Assembly: GCA_947383945.1 (NCBI GenBank)
Contig: CANDFH010000005.1
Span: 86,791 to 121,703 of the forward strand
Source: an uncultured Lachnospiraceae bacterium
Lineage (GTDB): Bacteria > Bacillota > Clostridia > Lachnospirales > Lachnospiraceae
Direction: 5' to 3'
DNA: 34,913 nt
The notes under the pieces were generated by a model. The model worked only from the letters and a program-made list of their open reading frames with translations. It was not told the origin of the DNA and did not search any database. This document shows positions 9,645-34,913 of this stretch, piece after piece (position 1 is the first letter of the stretch; each line of letters starts with the position of its first letter). The position numbers and the translations under genes are program-made.

Positions 9645-9944
9645 AAAAAAAGTCGCCTCCTTTTCGCACTTCATTGCAGTACGACAAGCGGTGACTGTAC
9701 ACTCACCCGTGTGTTTCGCACTTATCGAATCGAAGTGATTCCTTGGATGCTGTCTAAATTTCAGCAGACAGCACTTGGCTTCATCCCGAAAAAGCCGAGT
9801 CCACGGTTCTCTGCATAGCAGAATATTTATCTGTACAGTGACTTGTCGCCAGTTTTGATAACTTGACATTCGCTCCACGGAAAACCTGCCCTAAACAGGA
9901 CAGCAACCTCTCGCTTCTACGCTATCAACGTCACAACAGTTGGT

Positions 9945-11077: not shown

Positions 11078-12106
11078 TCAGGTGCTGTCCCCCTCGATTA
11101 AAACTGGTTCCAGCAGGCATGACTCTGTCTTTCTTCCATTTTGCCGCGCCACAATATTTTCAAAAATCAAACTTCCCATCTTTTCAAAATCAACGGCGAC
11201 TGTCGTCAGATTCGGGCGCATCATACTGGCAATATGTATATTATCACTCCCGATACATGCGATATCTTCAGGAACTCTCAGCCCTGCGTCCTTCGCTGCC
11301 AAAATAGCTCCGTAAGCCACATAGTCGTTAATACAGCAGACTGCTCTTGGAAGTTTTTTTTGACCAAGCAAAGCCCGCATTGCCTCCTCGCCGTCTTTTT
11401 CATCATAAGACTGCCCATGAATCCATTCCTGGCGAATTTCAAGACCAGCTTCCCTTGCATACTGATGCAGGCAGTCATACATCAGGGCAGTCGGATACCT
11501 CCCGTAAGATCCGCTCGCGGCTCCTCCAAGAATTCCAACGGTTCGATAATCTTTTTTGAGCAAATGTTCCACAAGAAGCTTCACTTTCTTTTTCGTGTCT
11601 GTATGTACCCCGATACAGCCAAATTTTTCAGCCTGCTCGCAGCATAAAATACATGGAACACGACGGTTTAACGTATTGATGGCACTCGCGTACTCGGCGT
11701 CAATCTCAATCGCGTCAACGCCCCCTCCCATAATAACAGCAGCTTCCACGCGAACTTCATCAAAGACATTCAATATTCTCCGCTCCGTTCCAGTATCATT
11801 TTTTCCATTATATAAAATTGTCATATACCCATTGGCTGACGCATGTTTTTCAAATTCATAATATACATTAGAAAAATACTCGTTCCCAATATGCGGAATC
11901 ATAAATCCAATAATTCTTGTTCTGTTCCTCTGTAGCCCTCTGGCCATCGCATTCGGACGGAACCCATACTTGTCAATCACTTCTTGTATTCTCGCCCGCG
12001 TCTTTTCCGAAACAGATCCTTTGCCCGAAATTACTCTGGAAACCAGAGACGGGGACACCCCAACCTCAGCGGCAATATCATAGATTGTTATATTCTTCTC
12101 TTCCAC
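11078..12106 (-). CDS. LacI-family transcriptional regulator (GTG start)
   Basis: 342 aa. N-terminal HTH TIYDIAAEVGVSPSLVSRVISGKGSVSEKTRARIQEVIDKYGFRPNAMARGLQ followed by a periplasmic-binding-fold domain. GTG at 12104-12106, with AAGGA 7 nt upstream. Confidence 0.88.
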   Translation of the reverse strand: MEEKNITIYDIAAEVGVSPSLVSRVISGKGSVSEKTRARIQEVIDKYGFRPNAMARGLQRNRTRIIGFMIPHIGNEYFSNVYYEFEKHASANGYMTILYNGKNDTGTERRILNVFDEVRVEAAVIMGGGVDAIEIDAEYASAINTLNRRVPCILCCEQAEKFGCIGVHTDTKKKVKLLVEHLLKKDYRTVGILGGAASGSYGRYPTALMYDCLHQYAREAGLEIRQEWIHGQSYDEKDGEEAMRALLGQKKLPRAVCCINDYVAYGAILAAKDAGLRVPEDIACIGSDNIHIASMMRPNLTTVAVDFEKMGSLIFENIVARQNGRKTESCLLEPVLIEGDST

Positions 12107-27963: not shown

Positions 27964-28009
27964 CGCCGCAGTGCATTTGTTTTATAGGACACAATTTCCT
28001 ATAAAATAA

Positions 28010-28110
28010 AAAAGCTGCCGCACAAAGAATGGCATACACAGAATTTTATAGATTGCATTAATACAAAATCCATACTCTGTATATCTTTCTCTTTGTGCGG
28101 CAGCTTTTAT
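28010..28110 (-). terminator. large 18-bp-stem hairpin with about 62-nt loop followed by U-run (complex terminator or structured RNA)
   Basis: AAAAGCTGCCGCACAAAG ... CTTTGTGCGGCAGCTTTT; the minus-strand read is followed by TTTTTTATTTTAT. Confidence 0.45.
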
Positions 28111-28355
28111 AATCAGCAGTCTGTTTTATAACAAAACACTCTTTCAAAATACTGTAGTACTACAGCAGACATTTGCTGCACTTTACAAGTTTTTCAAAAA
28201 GTCATAATATAGAATTTATAGAAATATAAATATTTATTTTTTAATAATTAAAATGCTAAATTTATATATTTCTTCTATAATATTTCTTTTTTAAAACAAT
28301 TTAAAAACAAAAACATGCAGACTGGTGTTTCATTTGGAAAACTGCTCTTAACTTC

Positions 28356-29789
28356 TTAAATTTCCACCGGCTCAAACCGTATTCTCATTTTCGGCAGTGC
28401 TGTGATGACGGTGTACGTATTATACAATCCATCTTCCAAAGAAAGGTCATTCTCACCGCTTGCTGGCGGCGCGAATATTTTTAATGATAAATCGCATGCT
28501 TCTTTTAAAGGCTTTTCAAAAAATGCTCCCATCAAATCAATCGTTTTTGCTTTCGGAGATTTATAGAACCACTTTCCATTCAGCTCCAGCATTAAGTTTG
28601 AATCATCTTCAAATGTAACCTCACAGAAATGAGGATTGCAGTCAAAGTGCAATGGGATCGCCAGTCCGTCGGCATCCTCCGCACCGCCCCAGCGCAGTGT
28701 TGCAGGAAGGGAAACTTCCTCCCCGACAGTCATCTCAGGGCTGAAATAATCGTCGTGAATAATCTCTTTGTAAGTGTAAAGCAGCGGCTGCGGAATACCA
28801 ACCTCCGCGTTATTTGGATCTTCAATTTCAAGCCCTAATCTGCCGCGGTCACGGAACTGATACATTGAAAAGTTTGTAAACCAAGCTGCATTTTCCTTCT
28901 TTATCAAATCGCAGAATTCTTTTACCATCGCCGCCTGGTCGTAAGGTCCTGTCACATCTCCATCCGCATTCAGCTCGCTCATCATCATCGGCTTTGCCAC
29001 GCCGCCGGAAAGCTCCTTAAAACGCTCGTAAGTGCGCTTTGTGTAGCGGAAAATGTCTTCGATATCGCCTCTGCTGTGCGATTTGCCGCCGCGTTCTGCC
29101 ACATCGTAAGGCCAGCCCCAGTGAAGTGCAAAATACCGGTCAATCGACCACATATCTGCATCTCTTACAGCTTGTGCAAAATCCTCTTCCTTCTCGATCT
29201 CCGTCTTGCCTTCATCCACACCGCCAGTACATAAAATAGTCTGTACATTCGGCGCATATTCTTTTAAAACTTTGCAGAAACGACTGTAAAATTCACCGAT
29301 TTCCTTGTAGCTGGCACGCTTTGTAAAACTAAACCAATTTCCTGTACATTCATGATTGATGCGCAGCATCATACGGCCAAATGGCTTTAAATCCTTGGCA
29401 ATCGCAATAAGATGCTCATCCGATACATGCGGGTCGATGGTCAATGTCAGTGTTACATCCTGCCCATGCCTGCGGATATCGCGCATACAATCAAATGGTT
29501 CGCCCTCTGTATTTCCGTTCAGACCGCCCTTATAGGTAAAATAATCATCATAAGGATAATCCCACGCAAAAGAAACATTTGGATTTGCATGAACCACGCT
29601 CGCTCTTCCCGGCCATCCTTCATCCAGCGGATAATAGCAGTACATAAGACTGATACTGCGGTGCGGTCTGCCCAAAATCTGCAAAATATAATCCTGATTT
29701 ACATACTCTCCACGCTCGGAGCCATCTCCCAGATCAACCGCGCATTTCGCTTTTCCCTGATGGATGGAATATACTTTTAAATCGCTCAT
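28356..29789 (-). CDS. cytoplasmic hypothetical protein, possibly a TIM-barrel glycoside-hydrolase-like enzyme of unassigned family
   Basis: 477 aa, no signal peptide. GGAAGGG RBS. Motifs LRINHECTGNWF and PMMMSELNADGD loosely resemble clan GH-A acid/base and nucleophile strands (speculative). Last gene of the kinase-GH94 operon. Confidence 0.4.
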   Translation of the reverse strand: MSDLKVYSIHQGKAKCAVDLGDGSERGEYVNQDYILQILGRPHRSISLMYCYYPLDEGWPGRASVVHANPNVSFAWDYPYDDYFTYKGGLNGNTEGEPFDCMRDIRRHGQDVTLTLTIDPHVSDEHLIAIAKDLKPFGRMMLRINHECTGNWFSFTKRASYKEIGEFYSRFCKVLKEYAPNVQTILCTGGVDEGKTEIEKEEDFAQAVRDADMWSIDRYFALHWGWPYDVAERGGKSHSRGDIEDIFRYTKRTYERFKELSGGVAKPMMMSELNADGDVTGPYDQAAMVKEFCDLIKKENAAWFTNFSMYQFRDRGRLGLEIEDPNNAEVGIPQPLLYTYKEIIHDDYFSPEMTVGEEVSLPATLRWGGAEDADGLAIPLHFDCNPHFCEVTFEDDSNLMLELNGKWFYKSPKAKTIDLMGAFFEKPLKEACDLSLKIFAPPASGENDLSLEDGLYNTYTVITALPKMRIRFEPVEI

Positions 29790-29894: not shown

Positions 29895-32288
29895 TTACAT
29901 TACAAGAATTACTTCATTTTCCTCTGCCATATCCGCTGCTGCCACATAAGGCTTATCCAGTTTCTTTCCATTCAGAGAAAACTCCTGAAAGCCTCCCTCC
30001 GCGCCGTTTGGATTCTTTACAACAATATGAAGCTTTTTGCCGCGGAACACTTTATCCATCGTAAATTCCTTCCAATCTGCCGGAACTGCCGGGCAGATCC
30101 AAAGACCGTCAAGATCCGGGCGCATACCGCAGATTCCTTCCACACAGCCAACCATACAGGTGGAAGCTGTTCCGGTCAGCCAATGCACGTGAGAACGTCC
30201 CTCAAACGGGGATTCTGTACTCTCAGTAAACTGTCCATGTACGTAAGGCTCAAGCTTTCTTGTATCCGCATCGTCATTCTGGGAAGCCGGAGAACTCTCC
30301 GTAAAGTACTCAAACGCGCGGTTTCCATGTCCCATCAGGGCTTCTGCCAGAATAATCCATCCCTGCGGCTGTGAGAAAATACCGCCGTTCTCCTTTGTGG
30401 ACGGGTTAAACAAAAGTGCCAGCGCGCCGTCAAACGCATGATCTACATAAGATGGAGCCATCACTCTTACACCGTACTTTGTATTTAACTCGCGGTGTAC
30501 CGACTCCAGAGCCTTTTCTGCCTGCTCTTTTGTCGCCAGACCACTGATTACTGCCCAGGACTGCGGGTTCAGCCACATACTTGCCTCCGGGTCATGCTTG
30601 GAACCAATCACCTGCCCGTCCTCCTTGATCCCGCGGACATAGCGGTCATCTTCCCAGCACTCCTTCTGGATAATATCGCCAAGCTCTTTCTGAGTTTTAT
30701 CAAGGTACGCAATATATTCCGTATCATTTAGATCGCTCGCAAAGCCTTTTAAAACTGTTATTGCATAGTACAGCTGCATTGCCACAAACGTAGACTCGCC
30801 CTTTTTGCCAAGACGCAGACAGTCGTTCCAGTCCGCATGAAGTCCCGCCGGCATTTTATGATCGCCAAGACGCTCCATTGAAAACTGTATCGCGCGCTTT
30901 AAGTGATCGTAAACCGTGCCTTCTTCCTTGTTTGCATAAGGAATCACTTCATTGATAAAATCCTTGTTGCCAGATTCTGACACATACTTCCACACCGTAG
31001 GGAACAGCCAGAGTGCATCGTCCGCGCGGTATGCCGGATGCCCTGTCGCACGCACATAAGAATCGTCGTCCGGCGTATCCTCATGACCCGCATTGTGATC
31101 GTACTTTACAAGAGGAAGCCCGCCGCCGTTATTTACCTGGGCAGAAAGCATAAAGCGAATCTGCTTTAACGCCATCTCCGGGTCAAGGTGAATAATACCC
31201 TGGATGTCCTGCACAGTATCGCGGTAACCGTAGCCGTTGCGCTGTCCGCAGTAAATGAACGACGCTGCCCTTGACCATGTAAATGTGATAAAGCACTGAT
31301 AAGCGTTCCATGTATTCACCATGCTGTTAAACGCTTCATCCGGCGTGCTGACCTGGAAATTTGCAAGTTTTGCATGCCAATAGTCGATCAATTCTTTCTT
31401 CTCCTGCTCGATAACCGCAAGATCTTCATAACCATTTACAATCTTTGCCGCAGCGGACGGAGTGGTCTGACCAAGAAGAAAAGCGATCTCTTTCGTCTCG
31501 CCAGGCTGCAATGTCAGAGCAGTATGTAATGCGCCGCAGCCGTTGGAATTGTAGTTTAACACATTGTCACATGCGCCGTTCTCAACAGCAACCGGATTGC
31601 CGTAAGTGTGATAATTGCCAAGAAACGCAGCTTTATCGCCGTTGTAGGAAGTCACCGGCGCGCCTGCCATCGCAAAGAAACGCTCCCTCCAGTTGCTGCC
31701 TTCCTCGTTCTTGCCGCAATTTTCGTTGATGCTCTGAACAATCATATTATTTTTAAAGTATGTTCTTGTGATAAACAGCGTATACTGCAAATTCACCTGA
31801 TCCTGCTCATAATTGCTGTCGTTTGTAAACTCAGCATAGCCAAATGCAGAAATTTTGCGCACCTTGTCCGTTGTGTTTGTAATCTTCGCGCGCCAAACTT
31901 CGTAAGTCTTATTTAACGGTACATAGTAAAGTACCTCTGAATGGATGCCCGCATAATCCGCAGCGATATTTGTGTAAGCAGTTCCATGACGGCACTCGCT
32001 TTTATAAGTATCAAGCGGTTTTGCCACCGGCTGCCACGATGCCGACCAAAAGTCCTTTGTCTCGTCATCCCTGAGATAAACATAGCGTCCCGGCGTATCG
32101 TCGCTGTTAAAATGATAGCGGATAATTCGCCCGTTCGCACCGCTCTTTACAAAACTGTAACCCCCCGCATTGTTTGAAATAATTGCGCCGTAAGCCGGAG
32201 AGCCAAGATAATTTGCCCATGGTGCCGGCGTGTTCGGCTTTGTAATTACATACTCTTTTGCCGCCTCATCAAAATAACCGTATTTCAT
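29895..32288 (-). CDS. GH94 glycoside phosphorylase (cellobiose/cellodextrin/chitobiose phosphorylase family)
   Basis: 797 aa. The N-terminus MKYGYFDEAAKEYVITKPNTPAPWANYLGSP...NNAGGYSF is near-identical in pattern to known cellobiose phosphorylases. The catalytic-Asp region ADWNDCLRLG is present. The 797-aa length also fits. Confidence 0.88.
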   Translation of the reverse strand: MKYGYFDEAAKEYVITKPNTPAPWANYLGSPAYGAIISNNAGGYSFVKSGANGRIIRYHFNSDDTPGRYVYLRDDETKDFWSASWQPVAKPLDTYKSECRHGTAYTNIAADYAGIHSEVLYYVPLNKTYEVWRAKITNTTDKVRKISAFGYAEFTNDSNYEQDQVNLQYTLFITRTYFKNNMIVQSINENCGKNEEGSNWRERFFAMAGAPVTSYNGDKAAFLGNYHTYGNPVAVENGACDNVLNYNSNGCGALHTALTLQPGETKEIAFLLGQTTPSAAAKIVNGYEDLAVIEQEKKELIDYWHAKLANFQVSTPDEAFNSMVNTWNAYQCFITFTWSRAASFIYCGQRNGYGYRDTVQDIQGIIHLDPEMALKQIRFMLSAQVNNGGGLPLVKYDHNAGHEDTPDDDSYVRATGHPAYRADDALWLFPTVWKYVSESGNKDFINEVIPYANKEEGTVYDHLKRAIQFSMERLGDHKMPAGLHADWNDCLRLGKKGESTFVAMQLYYAITVLKGFASDLNDTEYIAYLDKTQKELGDIIQKECWEDDRYVRGIKEDGQVIGSKHDPEASMWLNPQSWAVISGLATKEQAEKALESVHRELNTKYGVRVMAPSYVDHAFDGALALLFNPSTKENGGIFSQPQGWIILAEALMGHGNRAFEYFTESSPASQNDDADTRKLEPYVHGQFTESTESPFEGRSHVHWLTGTASTCMVGCVEGICGMRPDLDGLWICPAVPADWKEFTMDKVFRGKKLHIVVKNPNGAEGGFQEFSLNGKKLDKPYVAAADMAEENEVILVM

Positions 32289-32572: not shown

Positions 32573-33610
32573 TTATCGCTTTGGCATCGGTTTTAAACAG
32601 AGCAGTGTTTGTCGGATTGCTTCTAACTGGCCGCGGACTGCTTTTGCATCTCCCCTCTTTAGTTTTTTCATTAAACTATCTTCTTTCCACTTAATATCCA
32701 TACTCCAAAAAGCATGAATGATCGCATACAGATAAGGGTACATTCGTTTTTGTTCTTCCGAAAACGGGCGTTCTTTGTTGTATCCTTCTAAAAATGCCGG
32801 AAGAATCACACTTTCTGGATCTTTGTATTCCTTTGGATACTCCATCAGCCTTGCCTGAAATACTGCTTGCATCACCGCATCACAATACAAATTGTTATCC
32901 CCACAGCGGTTAAAATCAAAAACTCCAAGATGCCCTTCTTTTGTCTGATACAAATTACAATCGCTGAAATCCCCCTGAACCGCATACCGCGGCTTACTTT
33001 TTAAAGGAGAAAGCACTTCCATGTATTCTTTATAAATTTTTGTAATATTTTCATACAAAGGCTGGTCAATCGCTAAAAACTCTTCTGCATGGGATAAAAA
33101 GTCCGTGTATGCAAACAAATCATTATCCGTAAACGGATCAAACAACACACTGTACTCTACATGAAATTGATTTGCTTCTGCAATATTATGTGTTTTTGCC
33201 AATAATTCACCCGCCTTTTTGGCAAGACAATCATCAATTTCTGAAAGTTCACCATCCACAAACTCCTCCACTGTTACAATCACAGAATATTTATCGATCC
33301 AATACCACTTTGCAAAATTCTGCCCTGTTTTATATAAGATTGGAGTATCAATTCCCGAATCTTTTAACAGCGCGGCAAACTGACTCTGTCTTTCAATCAA
33401 TTCTATAGACACATCAGGCTCATTTTTCAGCCGAACCACAACCGACGAGCCGTTTTGTAAATCCGCTTTTACAATAAGTCTTACTTCCCCAGACTCCAAA
33501 CCATCTTCCTTCGAATCATATCTTTGAAGTTCCGTATACGAAACTGCTTTGGAAGGAACATGATAATCCTTTAAAATTGCATCTATAGTACATAAAGAAA
33601 TCTCCAGCAT
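32573..33610 (-). CDS. APH/choline-kinase-fold phosphotransferase (putative sugar kinase) with non-canonical QGD catalytic loop
   Basis: 345 aa. Brenner-like motif VQGDFSDCNLY (Q in place of the usual H) and metal-binding GVFDFNRCGD. GGGAGGG RBS. First gene upstream of GH94. Confidence 0.65.
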   Translation of the reverse strand: MLEISLCTIDAILKDYHVPSKAVSYTELQRYDSKEDGLESGEVRLIVKADLQNGSSVVVRLKNEPDVSIELIERQSQFAALLKDSGIDTPILYKTGQNFAKWYWIDKYSVIVTVEEFVDGELSEIDDCLAKKAGELLAKTHNIAEANQFHVEYSVLFDPFTDNDLFAYTDFLSHAEEFLAIDQPLYENITKIYKEYMEVLSPLKSKPRYAVQGDFSDCNLYQTKEGHLGVFDFNRCGDNNLYCDAVMQAVFQARLMEYPKEYKDPESVILPAFLEGYNKERPFSEEQKRMYPYLYAIIHAFWSMDIKWKEDSLMKKLKRGDAKAVRGQLEAIRQTLLCLKPMPKR

Positions 33611-33717
33611 AAAAACCCTCCCAAATGTTTCGCACCTTGATTTTCTATGAATCTAACAAAAATAAGCAAAATTTTAATTTGATTGTAATATAGTGAATTA
33701 TTTTTATAAATTAAACT

Positions 33718-33747
33718 ATTATATACCGCATTTTATAGGCTTTTCAA
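33718..33747 (-). promoter_or_regulatory. SigA-type promoter (-35 TTGAAA, 18 nt, -10 TATAAT) for the kinase-GH94 operon
   Basis: Minus read: TTGAAA(33742-33747)-18nt-TATAAT(33718-33723), about 105 nt upstream of the kinase ATG. A tandem repeat lies immediately upstream. Confidence 0.5.
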
Positions 33748-33773
33748 AAGCTAGATATAATATCTATACACAA

Positions 33774-33844
33774 GTTACACTGTTCAAATATACTTTTCTA
33801 CAAGACATAAATTACACTGTTCAAATATACTTTTCTACAAGACA
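33774..33844. repeat. tandem direct repeat, two identical 33-nt units (period 37)
   Basis: TTACACTGTTCAAATATACTTTTCTACAAGACA occurs at 33775-33807 and 33812-33844, 27-97 bp upstream of the kinase promoter -35. Confidence 0.85.
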
Positions 33845-33967
33845 CAAATTATCAAAATATTCACTTTATTTCACTTAATTATAAACTTATTATTATATCA
33901 TATTATTTATGTTTTTTCAAGCAAAAAATGGTATCAATTTTTTTGAAAAAACAGCACCCTTTTTTGT

Positions 33968-33997
33968 TTGACAGAGTATTATTTTTTTTGATACAAT
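33968..33997 (+). promoter_or_regulatory. plus-strand SigA-type promoter (-35 TTGACA, 18 nt, -10 TACAAT), divergent from the kinase operon
   Basis: TTGACA(33968-33973)-18nt-TACAAT(33992-33997). It would give a ~310-nt leader before the 34318 ORF. Confidence 0.5.
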
Positions 33998-34317
33998 AAC
34001 AGCACAAGTTACAGTACAAAAGAAACTTGTTTTGTAGATAACTTGTTTGTATTTTGGAGCATTGGAACTGACATAATAAGTCTGGTTCGTCCAATGCCTG
34101 AACCCAATCTGCGCGCGGCGCGGGCAAATAACTACCATAAACAGAGCAGCCAAGCAGAATAAATACAAGGTCAAGATGCTTATACGGAATGTAATAGTTG
34201 GTATTAAAGATAAGGTCTTGCAACACGCTTGGCTGGGGTAGGGAGGAAAAGAGGGTTGAAGGGATACGAAAAATATTTTAAACTTAAACACCAAAATTAA
34301 AAAGGAGGTCAACTGAC

Positions 34318-34908
34318 ATGCCAAACAATCTTTTTAAACTACGAACTTTAAAGAAACTTATGGCTGGAATACTGACAATATTTTTATGTATGTCAAAAAT
34401 TCCAGTAGCAGTATTAGCTAATAACACTTTACCAGATTATACTGACACAGGAATTAGAATCGTTAAAGATAATGAAGTTGAATTAGTAGAACAACTGATA
34501 AATGAAAAATATATTTTATATTCCGAACTTTTATCTACAGAAGATGAAAATAAAAAGAACGATTTACAAAAAAGATATACTATAATATGTCAGAAACTGC
34601 AAAAACTTGGAGTAAGTGAAGAGCTCCTTGAGGATATTCCATTAATAAATAATCCTGAATTTGCTCCTTACGCCACTCTTCCTAGTTTTGAAGCACTGGA
34701 GCAATTGTTTAAGTTTGATACATTCTATCAATACGGCTATGTTGGGTCAACCGTTTACAAATTTTATAATGTACTGGTTCATGATAAAAATGGAAGTAAA
34801 TTACATAGCACAAAAAAAGACAGTATTATTTTATGCGGCTCTTTATCAAATGTAAATCAACGTGAGTTCGATGAGCATACTTATGCAAAAGTCATATTTC
34901 CAGTATGA
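34318..34908 (+). CDS. hypothetical secreted/membrane-anchored protein in AT-rich island
   Basis: 196 aa. AAAGGAGGT RBS 9 nt upstream. N-terminal hydrophobic segment LMAGILTIFLCMSKIPVAVLA. Very AT-rich codon usage unlike its neighbours. No recognisable domain. Confidence 0.55.
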   Translation: MPNNLFKLRTLKKLMAGILTIFLCMSKIPVAVLANNTLPDYTDTGIRIVKDNEVELVEQLINEKYILYSELLSTEDENKKNDLQKRYTIICQKLQKLGVSEELLEDIPLINNPEFAPYATLPSFEALEQLFKFDTFYQYGYVGSTVYKFYNVLVHDKNGSKLHSTKKDSIILCGSLSNVNQREFDEHTYAKVIFPV

Positions 34909-34913
34909 ATTGA

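What the first reader, a model, noticed from the sequence alone, without database searches (positions are those of the whole stretch)
33774..33844. Exact 33-nt tandem direct repeat immediately upstream of the kinase-GH94 promoter
Two identical copies of TTACACTGTTCAAATATACTTTTCTACAAGACA (period 37) sit 27-97 bp upstream of the -35 element. The spacing of 3.5 helical turns and the direct-repeat organisation are typical of activator binding sites. Response-regulator and AraC-type activators bind such arrays.

No such regulator is encoded in the window, so it must act in trans. The repeats could alternatively be a duplicated promoter fragment.
Basis: seen in the sequence. Interest (0 to 1): 0.55.

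Follow-up and report, generated by a model that had tools for sequence, protein, structure and literature searches.

The report
Strain-specific 37-bp tandem duplication upstream of operon
The two identical 33-base repeats are real, but they are a recent 37-base tandem duplication found in only one lineage of a gut Lachnospiraceae bacterium (close relatives have one copy or none), so this is ordinary strain variation in non-coding DNA and not a conserved activator-binding array.

Summary
Observation confirmed. The 33-mer TTACACTGTTCAAATATACTTTTCTACAAGACA occurs exactly twice, at 33775-33807 and 33812-33844, with period 37. It lies 27-97 bp upstream of a promoter-like site facing the kinase-GH94 operon.

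Interpretation mostly not supported. Eleven contigs of a sister lineage carry the same upstream DNA with one copy of the 37-nt unit. In that allele the unit is bounded by an imperfect 10-nt direct repeat (ACACAAGTTA / ACAYAAATTA), the signature of slippage or unequal crossover. Copy number is perfectly linked to flanking SNPs, so it is not fast switching.

Strains whose kinase is 99% identical lack the whole surrounding AT-rich segment (33631-33890, 22% GC). In its place they carry 2.8 kb with an HTH protein, a small ORF and the ancestral promoter.

- The unit has no dyad symmetry, no internal sub-repeat and no RNA or DNA structure.
- It has no other copy in the window or the 59 fetched loci, and its core has no exact match in IMG/VR, GTDB genomes or JGI metagenomes.
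- A 37-bp period is 3.5 helical turns, which is atypical for cooperative activator sites.

Best reading: a neutral or mildly expression-modulating tandem duplication. A TR34-like doubling of a regulatory site cannot be excluded. Low interest.

The parts
33775..33807 (+). Copy 1 of the exact 33-mer TTACACTGTTCAAATATACTTTTCTACAAGACA
33812..33844 (+). Copy 2 of the exact 33-mer. It belongs to the extra 37-nt unit that single-copy strains lack.
33768..33777 (+). Left microhomology ACACAAGTTA, which begins the 37-nt unit
33805..33814 (+). Duplication junction ACATAAATTA, followed by C. It is a chimera of the right-flank type (ACAYAAA) and the left-flank type (TTAC).
33842..33851 (+). Right microhomology ACACAAATTA. 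This is the '0.3 copy' in the TRF result and is already present in the single-copy allele.
33631..33890 (.). Lineage-specific AT-rich segment (22% GC against 44.7% for the window) that contains the duplication. It replaces 2.8 kb (58-aa ORF, 622-aa HTH_3 protein, ancestral kinase promoter) found in related strains.
33718..33747 (-).
   Evidence: same site in L048
33892..33920 (-). Second, extended -10 promoter-like site TTGAAA-17-TGaTATAAT facing the kinase gene. If it is active, the repeats lie in the transcribed leader at about +41 to +110. Its -10 box abuts the right end of the AT-rich segment. The equivalent site in L047 is a perfect TTGACA-17-TGaTATAAT.
33968..33997 (+). Divergent near-consensus promoter-like site TTGACA-18-TACAAT (TG-extended) for the + strand leader and secreted-protein gene
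32573..33610 (-). APH-family phosphotransferase gene, first gene of the operon
29895..32288 (-). GH94 disaccharide phosphorylase gene

Best explanation
The array is a recent, lineage-specific tandem duplication of a 37-bp stretch of non-coding DNA.

Origin: it arose by slipped-strand mispairing or unequal crossover between two imperfect 10-bp direct repeats, ACACAAGTTA and ACAYAAATTA. In the single-copy allele these repeats lie 37 bp apart.

Setting: the duplication sits inside a 223-nt (now 260-nt) AT-rich segment of unknown origin. In this lineage that segment has replaced the ancestral 2.8-kb regulatory region upstream of the kinase-GH94 operon, which held an HTH protein gene, a small ORF and the native promoter.

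Function: the duplication has no dedicated function. At most it changes operon expression modestly. It could do so by adding 37 bp (3.5 helical turns) between the upstream extended -10 promoter (33920-33892) and the proximal promoter-like site (33747-33718), or by lengthening an unstructured 5' leader.

Shown here: the duplication, its boundaries, the microhomology, the 1/2/0-copy distribution among strains, and the absence of structure and of other copies. Inferred: the slippage mechanism, the direction of change (1 to 2 copies) and neutrality.
For: - Single-copy allele. Eleven contigs (L048-L058) have the same upstream DNA, about 96% identical over 1.86 kb, with exactly 37 nt fewer and the same unit flanked by ACACAAGTTA...ACAYAAATTA.
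- Junction. The window's middle junction ACATAAA-TTAC is the chimera expected from recombination between those two microhomologies.
- No third copy. Beyond the 10-nt microhomology there is no degenerate extra copy.
- Linkage. Copy number is perfectly linked to flanking SNPs: 33751 C/T and 33886 C/T.
- Direction of change. In kinase-GH94 coding DNA the window is 0.76% from single-copy L048. Both are about 1.9% from single-copy L058, which groups with strains lacking the segment. Single-copy strains are therefore paraphyletic and the duplication is derived.
- Related strains. Those with a 99%-identical kinase (L030-L047, L059) and the 82% ortholog (L020) lack the sequence and share a different, conserved promoter.
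- No structure. The leader RNA is less structured than shuffles, z = +1.9 and +0.4. As single-stranded DNA the repeat region folds at 0 kcal/mol, z = +2.2, so it has no dyad.
- No other copies of the 33-mer in the window or 59 loci; exact scans with 21-27-nt cores found nothing in IMG/VR, GTDB genomes or JGI metagenomes, and BLAST of the surrounding region found nothing in phages and only a 72-nt AT-rich hit outside the repeat in plasmids.
- No excess of sub-motifs elsewhere in the window.
- Not coding. The unit length, 37, is not a multiple of 3, so the 61-aa ORF at 33693-33878 is not conserved.
Against: - All single-copy contigs come from Logan (k=31) assemblies, and I could not check reads. 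I argue against collapse on two grounds. A two-copy allele gives a branching loop at k=31 that should break contigs. And 24 of 35 L048 junction 31-mers do not exist in the window allele.
- The direction of change is not certain. In the adjacent leader (33891-34286), L048 and L058 share 12 derived states against the window and L047. The locus is therefore mosaic, and a 2-to-1 deletion remains possible.
- Neutrality is an inference. No expression data exist, and the two-copy allele is fixed in every contig of its lineage.
Confidence: 0.7

Rival explanations
1. The 37-bp unit contains a binding site for a trans-acting regulator, either an activator of the proximal promoter or a roadblock downstream of the distal one. 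The duplication doubles that site and changes operon expression adaptively. This would parallel the TR34/TR46 promoter duplications of Aspergillus fumigatus cyp51A.
For: - The position, 27-97 bp upstream of a good promoter-like site, is compatible with such a role.
- The two-copy allele is fixed in at least 17 contigs of its lineage.
- This lineage has lost the divergent HTH protein of related strains, so the operon's control has been rewired.
- The TR34 precedent shows that a 34-bp promoter duplication can double transcription-factor sites (PMC9239056, PMC4954732).
Against: - The unit has no dyad and no internal direct sub-repeat.
- A 37-bp period puts the copies on opposite helix faces (own knowledge of helical phasing).
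- No related motif occurs at other promoters in 35 kb, and there is no cre-like site.
- No regulator gene lies nearby; the only one in the window is a LacI-family gene 21 kb away.
- The sequence is absent from orthologous promoters.
- Promoter-like matches are expected by chance in 22% GC DNA (14 found against 5.6 expected).
Confidence: 0.2
2. The repeat is a phase-variable contingency locus: copy number switches rapidly between 1 and 2 within populations and toggles expression.
For: - Copy number differs between close relatives.
- Tandem-repeat copy-number switching is documented in bacteria, for example in M. tuberculosis (PMC12817950, abstract only read).
Against: - Each state is perfectly linked to two flanking SNPs and to a coding-region lineage. 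No lineage shows both states in 29 contigs.
- Two copies of a 37-nt unit slip far more rarely than classical 1-8-nt contingency tracts (own knowledge).
Confidence: 0.05
3. The repeat is part of a mobile or dispersed element: a REP or MITE, IS-end transposase sites, phage att or arm sites, or plasmid iterons.
For: - The surrounding region is a hotspot for mobile DNA. An IS30-family element and a DGR prophage sit at 33947/8 in some strains, and an IS lies at the window end.
- The AT-rich segment is foreign-looking, 22% GC.
Against: - No other copy exists in the window or 59 loci, and exact core scans of IMG/VR, GTDB representative genomes and JGI metagenomes found none; BLAST of the surrounding region gave nothing in phages and nothing covering the repeat in plasmids.
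- The repeats are identical in strains with and without the IS30 element and prophage.
- The terminal inverted repeat of the segment is not above chance: 59 of 300 shuffles reach its score.
- No integrase or Rep gene is adjacent.
Confidence: 0.03
4. The repeats form a cis-regulatory RNA element in the 5' leader transcribed from the distal promoter, for example tandem protein-binding sites or an attenuator.
For: A strong extended -10 promoter-like site at 33920-33892 would put both copies in the leader.
Against: - The leader folds worse than shuffled controls, and no terminator-like site was found.
- There is no Rfam hit.
- Copy number varies and the sequence is absent from orthologs.
Confidence: 0.02

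Closest known systems
Tandem duplications and minisatellite-like copy-number polymorphisms generated by slipped-strand mispairing or unequal crossover between short direct repeats
   Same: - The copies are head to tail with no spacer.
- They are 35/37 identical.
- The unit is bounded by a 10-nt imperfect microhomology in the single-copy allele.
- Close relatives have 1 or 2 copies.
   Different: No difference was found. Only two states were seen, each fixed in its lineage.
TR34/TR46 promoter tandem repeats of Aspergillus fumigatus cyp51A (PMC9239056, PMC4954732)
   Same: A unit of about 34-37 bp is duplicated in tandem upstream of a promoter in some strains only.
   Different: In TR34 the unit is known to carry SrbA and AtrR sites and to raise expression under selection. 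Here no binding site, regulator, phenotype or selection is known, and the organism is a bacterium.
Direct-repeat activator sites of OmpR/PhoB-, LytTR- or AraC-type regulators
   Same: The repeats are direct and lie upstream of a -35 element.
   Different: Those sites are 6-9-bp or 17-bp elements spaced by whole helical turns (10-11 or 21 bp), and they are conserved with a cognate regulator (own knowledge). Here the unit is 33-37 bp at 3.5 turns, has no sub-repeats, is not conserved and has no regulator.
Promoter replacement or regulatory rewiring by deletion and insertion in strain-variable intergenic regions
   Same: The 260-nt AT-rich segment replaces 2.8 kb that held a putative regulator and the native promoter. 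IS elements are nearby.
   Different: The source of the replacing DNA is unknown, and no IS end or inverted-repeat signature flanks it.

Membership tests
Tandem duplication / copy-number polymorphism by slippage | Head-to-tail copies, nearly identical | tested here: met
   33/33 and 35/37 identity at period 37
Tandem duplication / copy-number polymorphism by slippage | Short direct repeat (microhomology) at the unit boundaries in the unduplicated allele, and a chimeric junction in the duplicated allele | tested here: met
   ACACAAGTTA / ACAYAAATTA lie 37 bp apart in L048 and L058; the window junction is ACATAAA+TTAC
Tandem duplication / copy-number polymorphism by slippage | Copy number differs among close relatives | tested here: met
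   Two copies in L001-L019 and one copy in L048-L058. Caveat: the single-copy contigs are k=31 Logan assemblies; collapse is argued against.
Activator binding-site array (response regulator / AraC / LytTR type) | Recognition elements repeated at whole helical turns (10-11 or about 21 bp) | tested here: not met
   The period is 37 bp, or 3.5 turns. No internal sub-repeat or degenerate further copy was found.
Activator binding-site array (response regulator / AraC / LytTR type) | Array conserved in orthologous promoters and close strains | tested here: not met
   One copy in the sister lineage; absent in strains with a 99%-identical kinase and in the 82% ortholog
Activator binding-site array (response regulator / AraC / LytTR type) | Cognate regulator encoded nearby, or further sites at co-regulated promoters | tested here: not met
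   No response regulator or AraC protein in the window; the only regulator is a LacI-family gene 21 kb away. No further copies or sub-motifs. Only 35 kb plus the fetched loci could be searched.
Activator binding-site array (response regulator / AraC / LytTR type) | Specific protein binding and dependence of transcription on the repeats | not testable with these tools
   Needs EMSA or pull-down and reporter fusions
Dispersed repeat (REP / MITE / IS end) | Many copies dispersed in the genome | tested here: inconclusive
   None in the window or 59 loci; exact 21-27-nt core scans of IMG/VR, GTDB representatives and JGI metagenomes found none, and BLAST of the region found none in phages or plasmids. 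The species' own complete genome was not available.
Dispersed repeat (REP / MITE / IS end) | Hairpin or terminal inverted repeats | tested here: not met
   Single-stranded DNA MFE is 0 kcal/mol. The segment's inverted repeat is not above shuffles.
Phase-variable contingency repeat | Both copy-number states occur within one lineage or population | tested here: not met
   Copy number is perfectly linked to flanking SNPs in 29 contigs. Within-sample reads were not available.
Cis-regulatory leader RNA | Conserved secondary structure or a match to a known family | tested here: not met
   z = +1.9 and +0.4; no Rfam match
Plasmid / phage iterons or att sites | Adjacent Rep or integrase gene; the repeat marks the boundary of an inserted element | tested here: not met
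   No such gene is adjacent. The repeats are identical with and without the IS30 element and prophage, whose boundary is at 33947/8 and not at the repeats.

The most novel reading that the evidence does not exclude
After this lineage lost the ancestral HTH-regulator and small-ORF module and acquired a foreign AT-rich promoter or leader, a 37-bp duplication doubled a cis-acting site in it. That change was then fixed because it retunes expression of the kinase-GH94 sugar-phosphorylase operon. This would be a bacterial, gut-commensal counterpart of the TR34-type promoter duplication.
Probability: 0.15. Interest if true: 0.4.

Novelty: new member of a known kind. Interest (0 to 1): 0.15.

Why it matters
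It matters little on its own. It is one more example of microhomology-mediated tandem duplication in a strain-variable intergenic region.

It is useful as a clean natural 1-copy versus 2-copy pair for testing whether small promoter-region duplications tune carbohydrate-utilisation operons in gut Lachnospiraceae. It also serves as a strain marker.

The surrounding story is more interesting than the repeat itself. A regulator-plus-promoter module has been replaced by 223-260 nt of AT-rich DNA that has spread between lineages. Even so, this is a familiar kind of regulatory rewiring.

Tried and rejected
- Dispersed copies. I searched the 33-mer with up to 3-7 mismatches or edits in the window and all 59 loci, and 21-27-nt cores by exact match in IMG/VR, GTDB genomes and JGI metagenomes. 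I also ran BLAST of the segment against phages and plasmids. Nothing was found except a 72-nt, 78% AT-rich plasmid hit outside the repeat.
- Identifying the genome. The protein-based scan of GTDB found no relative. The organism is known only as Lachnospiraceae, from cluster names.
- A degenerate third copy: rejected.
- The segment as a copy of the neighbouring native promoter. GATAYAAT-N-CACAAGTTACA occurs at 33754-33779 and at 33990-34013, but the local alignment is not above shuffles, with 96 of 300 reaching its score.
- MITE-like terminal inverted repeats: not above chance.
- RNA structure, Rfam families and terminators: none.
- Dyad operator: none.
- cre / CcpA site: none in the window.
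- Sub-motif regulon within the window: none.
- Non-Logan confirmation of the single-copy allele. The last contig look-up (P0128, an ENA assembly) turned out to be the regulator-bearing type.

Full report
**1. Observation**

- The 33-mer TTACACTGTTCAAATATACTTTTCTACAAGACA occurs exactly at 33775-33807 and 33812-33844 on the + strand.
  - No other match with up to 3 mismatches exists in the 34.9-kb window, and no shuffle produced a match.
- TRF calls 33768-33851 as period 37, 2.3 copies.
- Read as 37-nt units, the two copies differ only in the heptamer that separates the 33-mers. The three heptamers are ACACAAG, ACATAAA and ACACAAA, each followed by TTA.
- The minus-strand genes downstream are an APH-family phosphotransferase (32573-33610) and a GH94 phosphorylase (29895-32288). 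A 477-aa protein without a Pfam domain, a GH43 protein and an ABC sugar transporter follow.
- Two further strong promoter-like sites lie close by:
  - TTGAAA-17-TGaTATAAT at 33920-33892 (minus strand). If active, it would transcribe through the repeats.
  - TTGACA-18-TACAAT at 33968-33997 (plus strand).
- The region is 22% GC, so such matches are enriched by composition: 14 were found against 5.6 expected.

**2. Comparative evidence**

Contigs encoding exactly the window's kinase or its neighbouring 196-aa ORF all carry both copies, base for base. These are L001-L019, SPAdes assemblies of many ENA samples. The duplication is therefore real.

Contigs encoding kinase variants P0122 and P0129 (L048-L058, 11 contigs from different sequencing runs) behave differently.
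- They have the same upstream DNA, about 96% identical over 1.86 kb.
- They are exactly 37 nt shorter and carry one copy...ACACAAGTTAC-ACTGTTCAAATATACTTTTCTACAAG-ACA[T/C]AAATTATC....
- In this allele the unit is bracketed by an imperfect 10-nt direct repeat, ACACAAGTTA / ACAYAAATTA.
- The window's internal junction, ACATAAA+TTAC, is the chimera expected from mispairing of those two repeats.
- Beyond those 10 nt there is no degenerate third copy.

Copy number is perfectly linked to two flanking SNPs, at 33751 and 33886. It is therefore a stable lineage marker and not a fast switch.

Direction of change:
- In kinase-GH94 coding DNA the window is 0.76% from single-copy L048.
- Both are about 1.9% from single-copy L058, which clusters with strains that lack the segment.
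- On that tree single-copy strains are paraphyletic, so the duplication is derived.
- The adjacent leader gives a conflicting grouping (12 sites unite L048 and L058). The locus is therefore mosaic, and the direction is likely but not proven.

Caveat on the single-copy contigs:
- All of them are Logan (k=31) assemblies.
- A two-copy allele produces a branching loop at k=31, which should break contigs and not collapse them.
- 24 of the 35 L048 junction 31-mers do not exist in the window allele.
- Collapse is therefore unlikely, but I could not check reads.
- My one remaining look-up of a non-Logan variant (P0128) returned a regulator-bearing strain.

**3. The setting**

Strains whose kinase is 99% identical (P0001, P0123, P0127, P0128; L030-L047, L059) lack the repeat and its whole surroundings.
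- Homology to the window stops 21 nt upstream of the kinase start codon, at 33630/33631. It resumes at about 33891.
- Between those points the window has 260 nt of 22%-GC DNA.
- The other strains instead have 2.8 kb holding a 58-aa ORF, a divergently oriented 622-aa protein with a central HTH_3 domain (E = 5e-10) and a different kinase promoter, TTGAAC-17-TGTGATAAAAT.
- That promoter is also recognisable upstream of the 82% ortholog L020. The regulator-bearing arrangement is therefore ancestral and the AT-rich segment is a replacement.

The AT-rich segment itself:
- Its right end abuts the -10 box of the 33920-33892 promoter. In L047 the equivalent site is a perfect TTGACA-17-TGaTATAAT.
- Its source is unknown. 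There is no match in the window or the loci; BLAST of the segment against phages and plasmids and exact scans with the repeat core and one other 26-nt piece in IMG/VR, GTDB genomes and JGI metagenomes found nothing, except a 72-nt AT-rich plasmid hit.
- Its putative terminal inverted repeat is not above chance.
- Its resemblance to the neighbouring native promoter (GATAYAAT-N-CACAAGTTACA) is not above chance either.

The region is a hotspot for mobile DNA.
- An IS30-family element plus a DGR-bearing prophage sit at 33947/8 in some strains.
- An IS truncates the 358-aa neighbour gene to 196 aa at the window end.
- The repeats are unchanged across these variants.

**4. Properties of the unit**

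- The leader RNA containing the repeats folds worse than shuffled controls: z = +1.9 for 287 nt and +0.4 for the repeat region.
- As single-stranded DNA the repeat region has an MFE of 0 kcal/mol, z = +2.2, so it has no dyad symmetry.
- No terminator-like site and no Rfam family match were found.
- Thirds of the 33-mer have no excess matches elsewhere in the window at up to 3 mismatches. In particular none lies at the other sugar-operon promoters.
- There is no cre-like site.
- The window encodes no response regulator or AraC protein. It does encode a LacI-family regulator at 11078-12106, next to another ABC transporter.
- The unit length, 37 nt, is not a multiple of three, so the mechanical 61-aa ORF across the repeats cannot be conserved between alleles.

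**5. Interpretation**

The best-supported reading is a microhomology-mediated 37-bp tandem duplication, specific to one lineage, in recently acquired AT-rich non-coding DNA.
- It is not a conserved regulatory architecture.
- A 37-bp period (3.5 turns) places the copies on opposite helix faces. Classical direct-repeat activators use 10-11 or about 21 bp (own knowledge).

The duplication's consequence is probably nil or modest. It moves the distal promoter 37 bp further from the proximal one: 173 bp apart in the window against 136 bp in L048. Alternatively it lengthens an unstructured leader.

The main rival, at about 0.2, is that the unit carries a binding site whose doubling retunes the operon, like TR34/TR46 in A. 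fumigatus cyp51A (PMC9239056, PMC4954732). Nothing in the sequence argues for this, but it cannot be excluded without expression or binding data. Phase variation, a mobile or dispersed repeat, and an RNA element are each unlikely, for the reasons tabulated.

**6. Novelty and verdict**

This is a new instance of a well-known kind of event. Interest is low (0.15). Their main interpretation is not supported. Their fallback, a duplicated promoter fragment, is near the mark.

Noticed in passing
window 34004-34290 (+), promoter 33968-33997: A leader of about 290 nt follows a near-consensus extended -10 promoter. It is conserved (93% to L047) and moderately structured (z = -1.84; 2 compensatory pairs among 4 strains). 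The ORFs behind it differ between strains and are unrelated (358-aa secreted protein against a 406-aa protein). There is no Rfam match. It is a candidate sRNA or cis-regulatory leader.
   Followed up: partly
L047:5287-8113 (also L040, L059, L030-L046): Strains with a 99%-identical kinase carry a divergent 622-aa protein with a central HTH_3 domain (residues 308-357). They also carry a 58-aa ORF with a hydrophobic N-terminus, behind a perfect TTGACA-17-TGaTATAAT promoter and a GC-rich leader of about 450 nt. This may be a regulator and small-peptide module controlling the kinase-GH94 operon. It is entirely missing from the window lineage. In some strains the 622-aa gene is split (425, 472 or 575 aa).
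   Followed up: partly
window 34318-34913: The 196-aa ORF is the first 181 residues of a 358-aa secreted protein that is intact in L048. Homology stops at 34859. L014 continues with a DDE_Tnp_1 transposase, and many metagenome contigs end exactly at the window end. This indicates an IS insertion.
   Followed up: partly
L001-L005, L008 (junction at window 33947/33948): In some strains of the same lineage an IS30-family element (HTH_38 + rve, 353 aa) sits here. It is followed by prophage tail and lysis genes with a diversity-generating retroelement (RVT_1, bAvd, mtd_2nd).
   Followed up: partly
window 33631-33890: This AT-rich segment is about 1% diverged between strains whose adjacent kinase-GH94 coding DNA differs by 1.9% (L058 against the window). 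The segment has therefore spread between lineages by recombination. Its origin is unknown.
   Followed up: partly
window 28007-28111: A 36-nt inverted repeat (81% complementary) with a 33-nt loop lies in the 770-nt gap between the 477-aa gene and the GH43 gene. A similar sequence (84%) is present in L047.
   Followed up: no
window 28356-29789 (-): A 477-aa protein without any Pfam domain is conserved directly downstream of GH94 in all strains and in the 82% ortholog locus. It is likely part of the same pathway.
   Followed up: no
window 11078-12106 (-) and 9843-9927 (-): A LacI-family regulator lies next to an ABC sugar transporter and DUF5696 cluster. An S10-Clostridia ribosomal leader (84 bits) precedes the ribosomal protein operon.
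   Followed up: no
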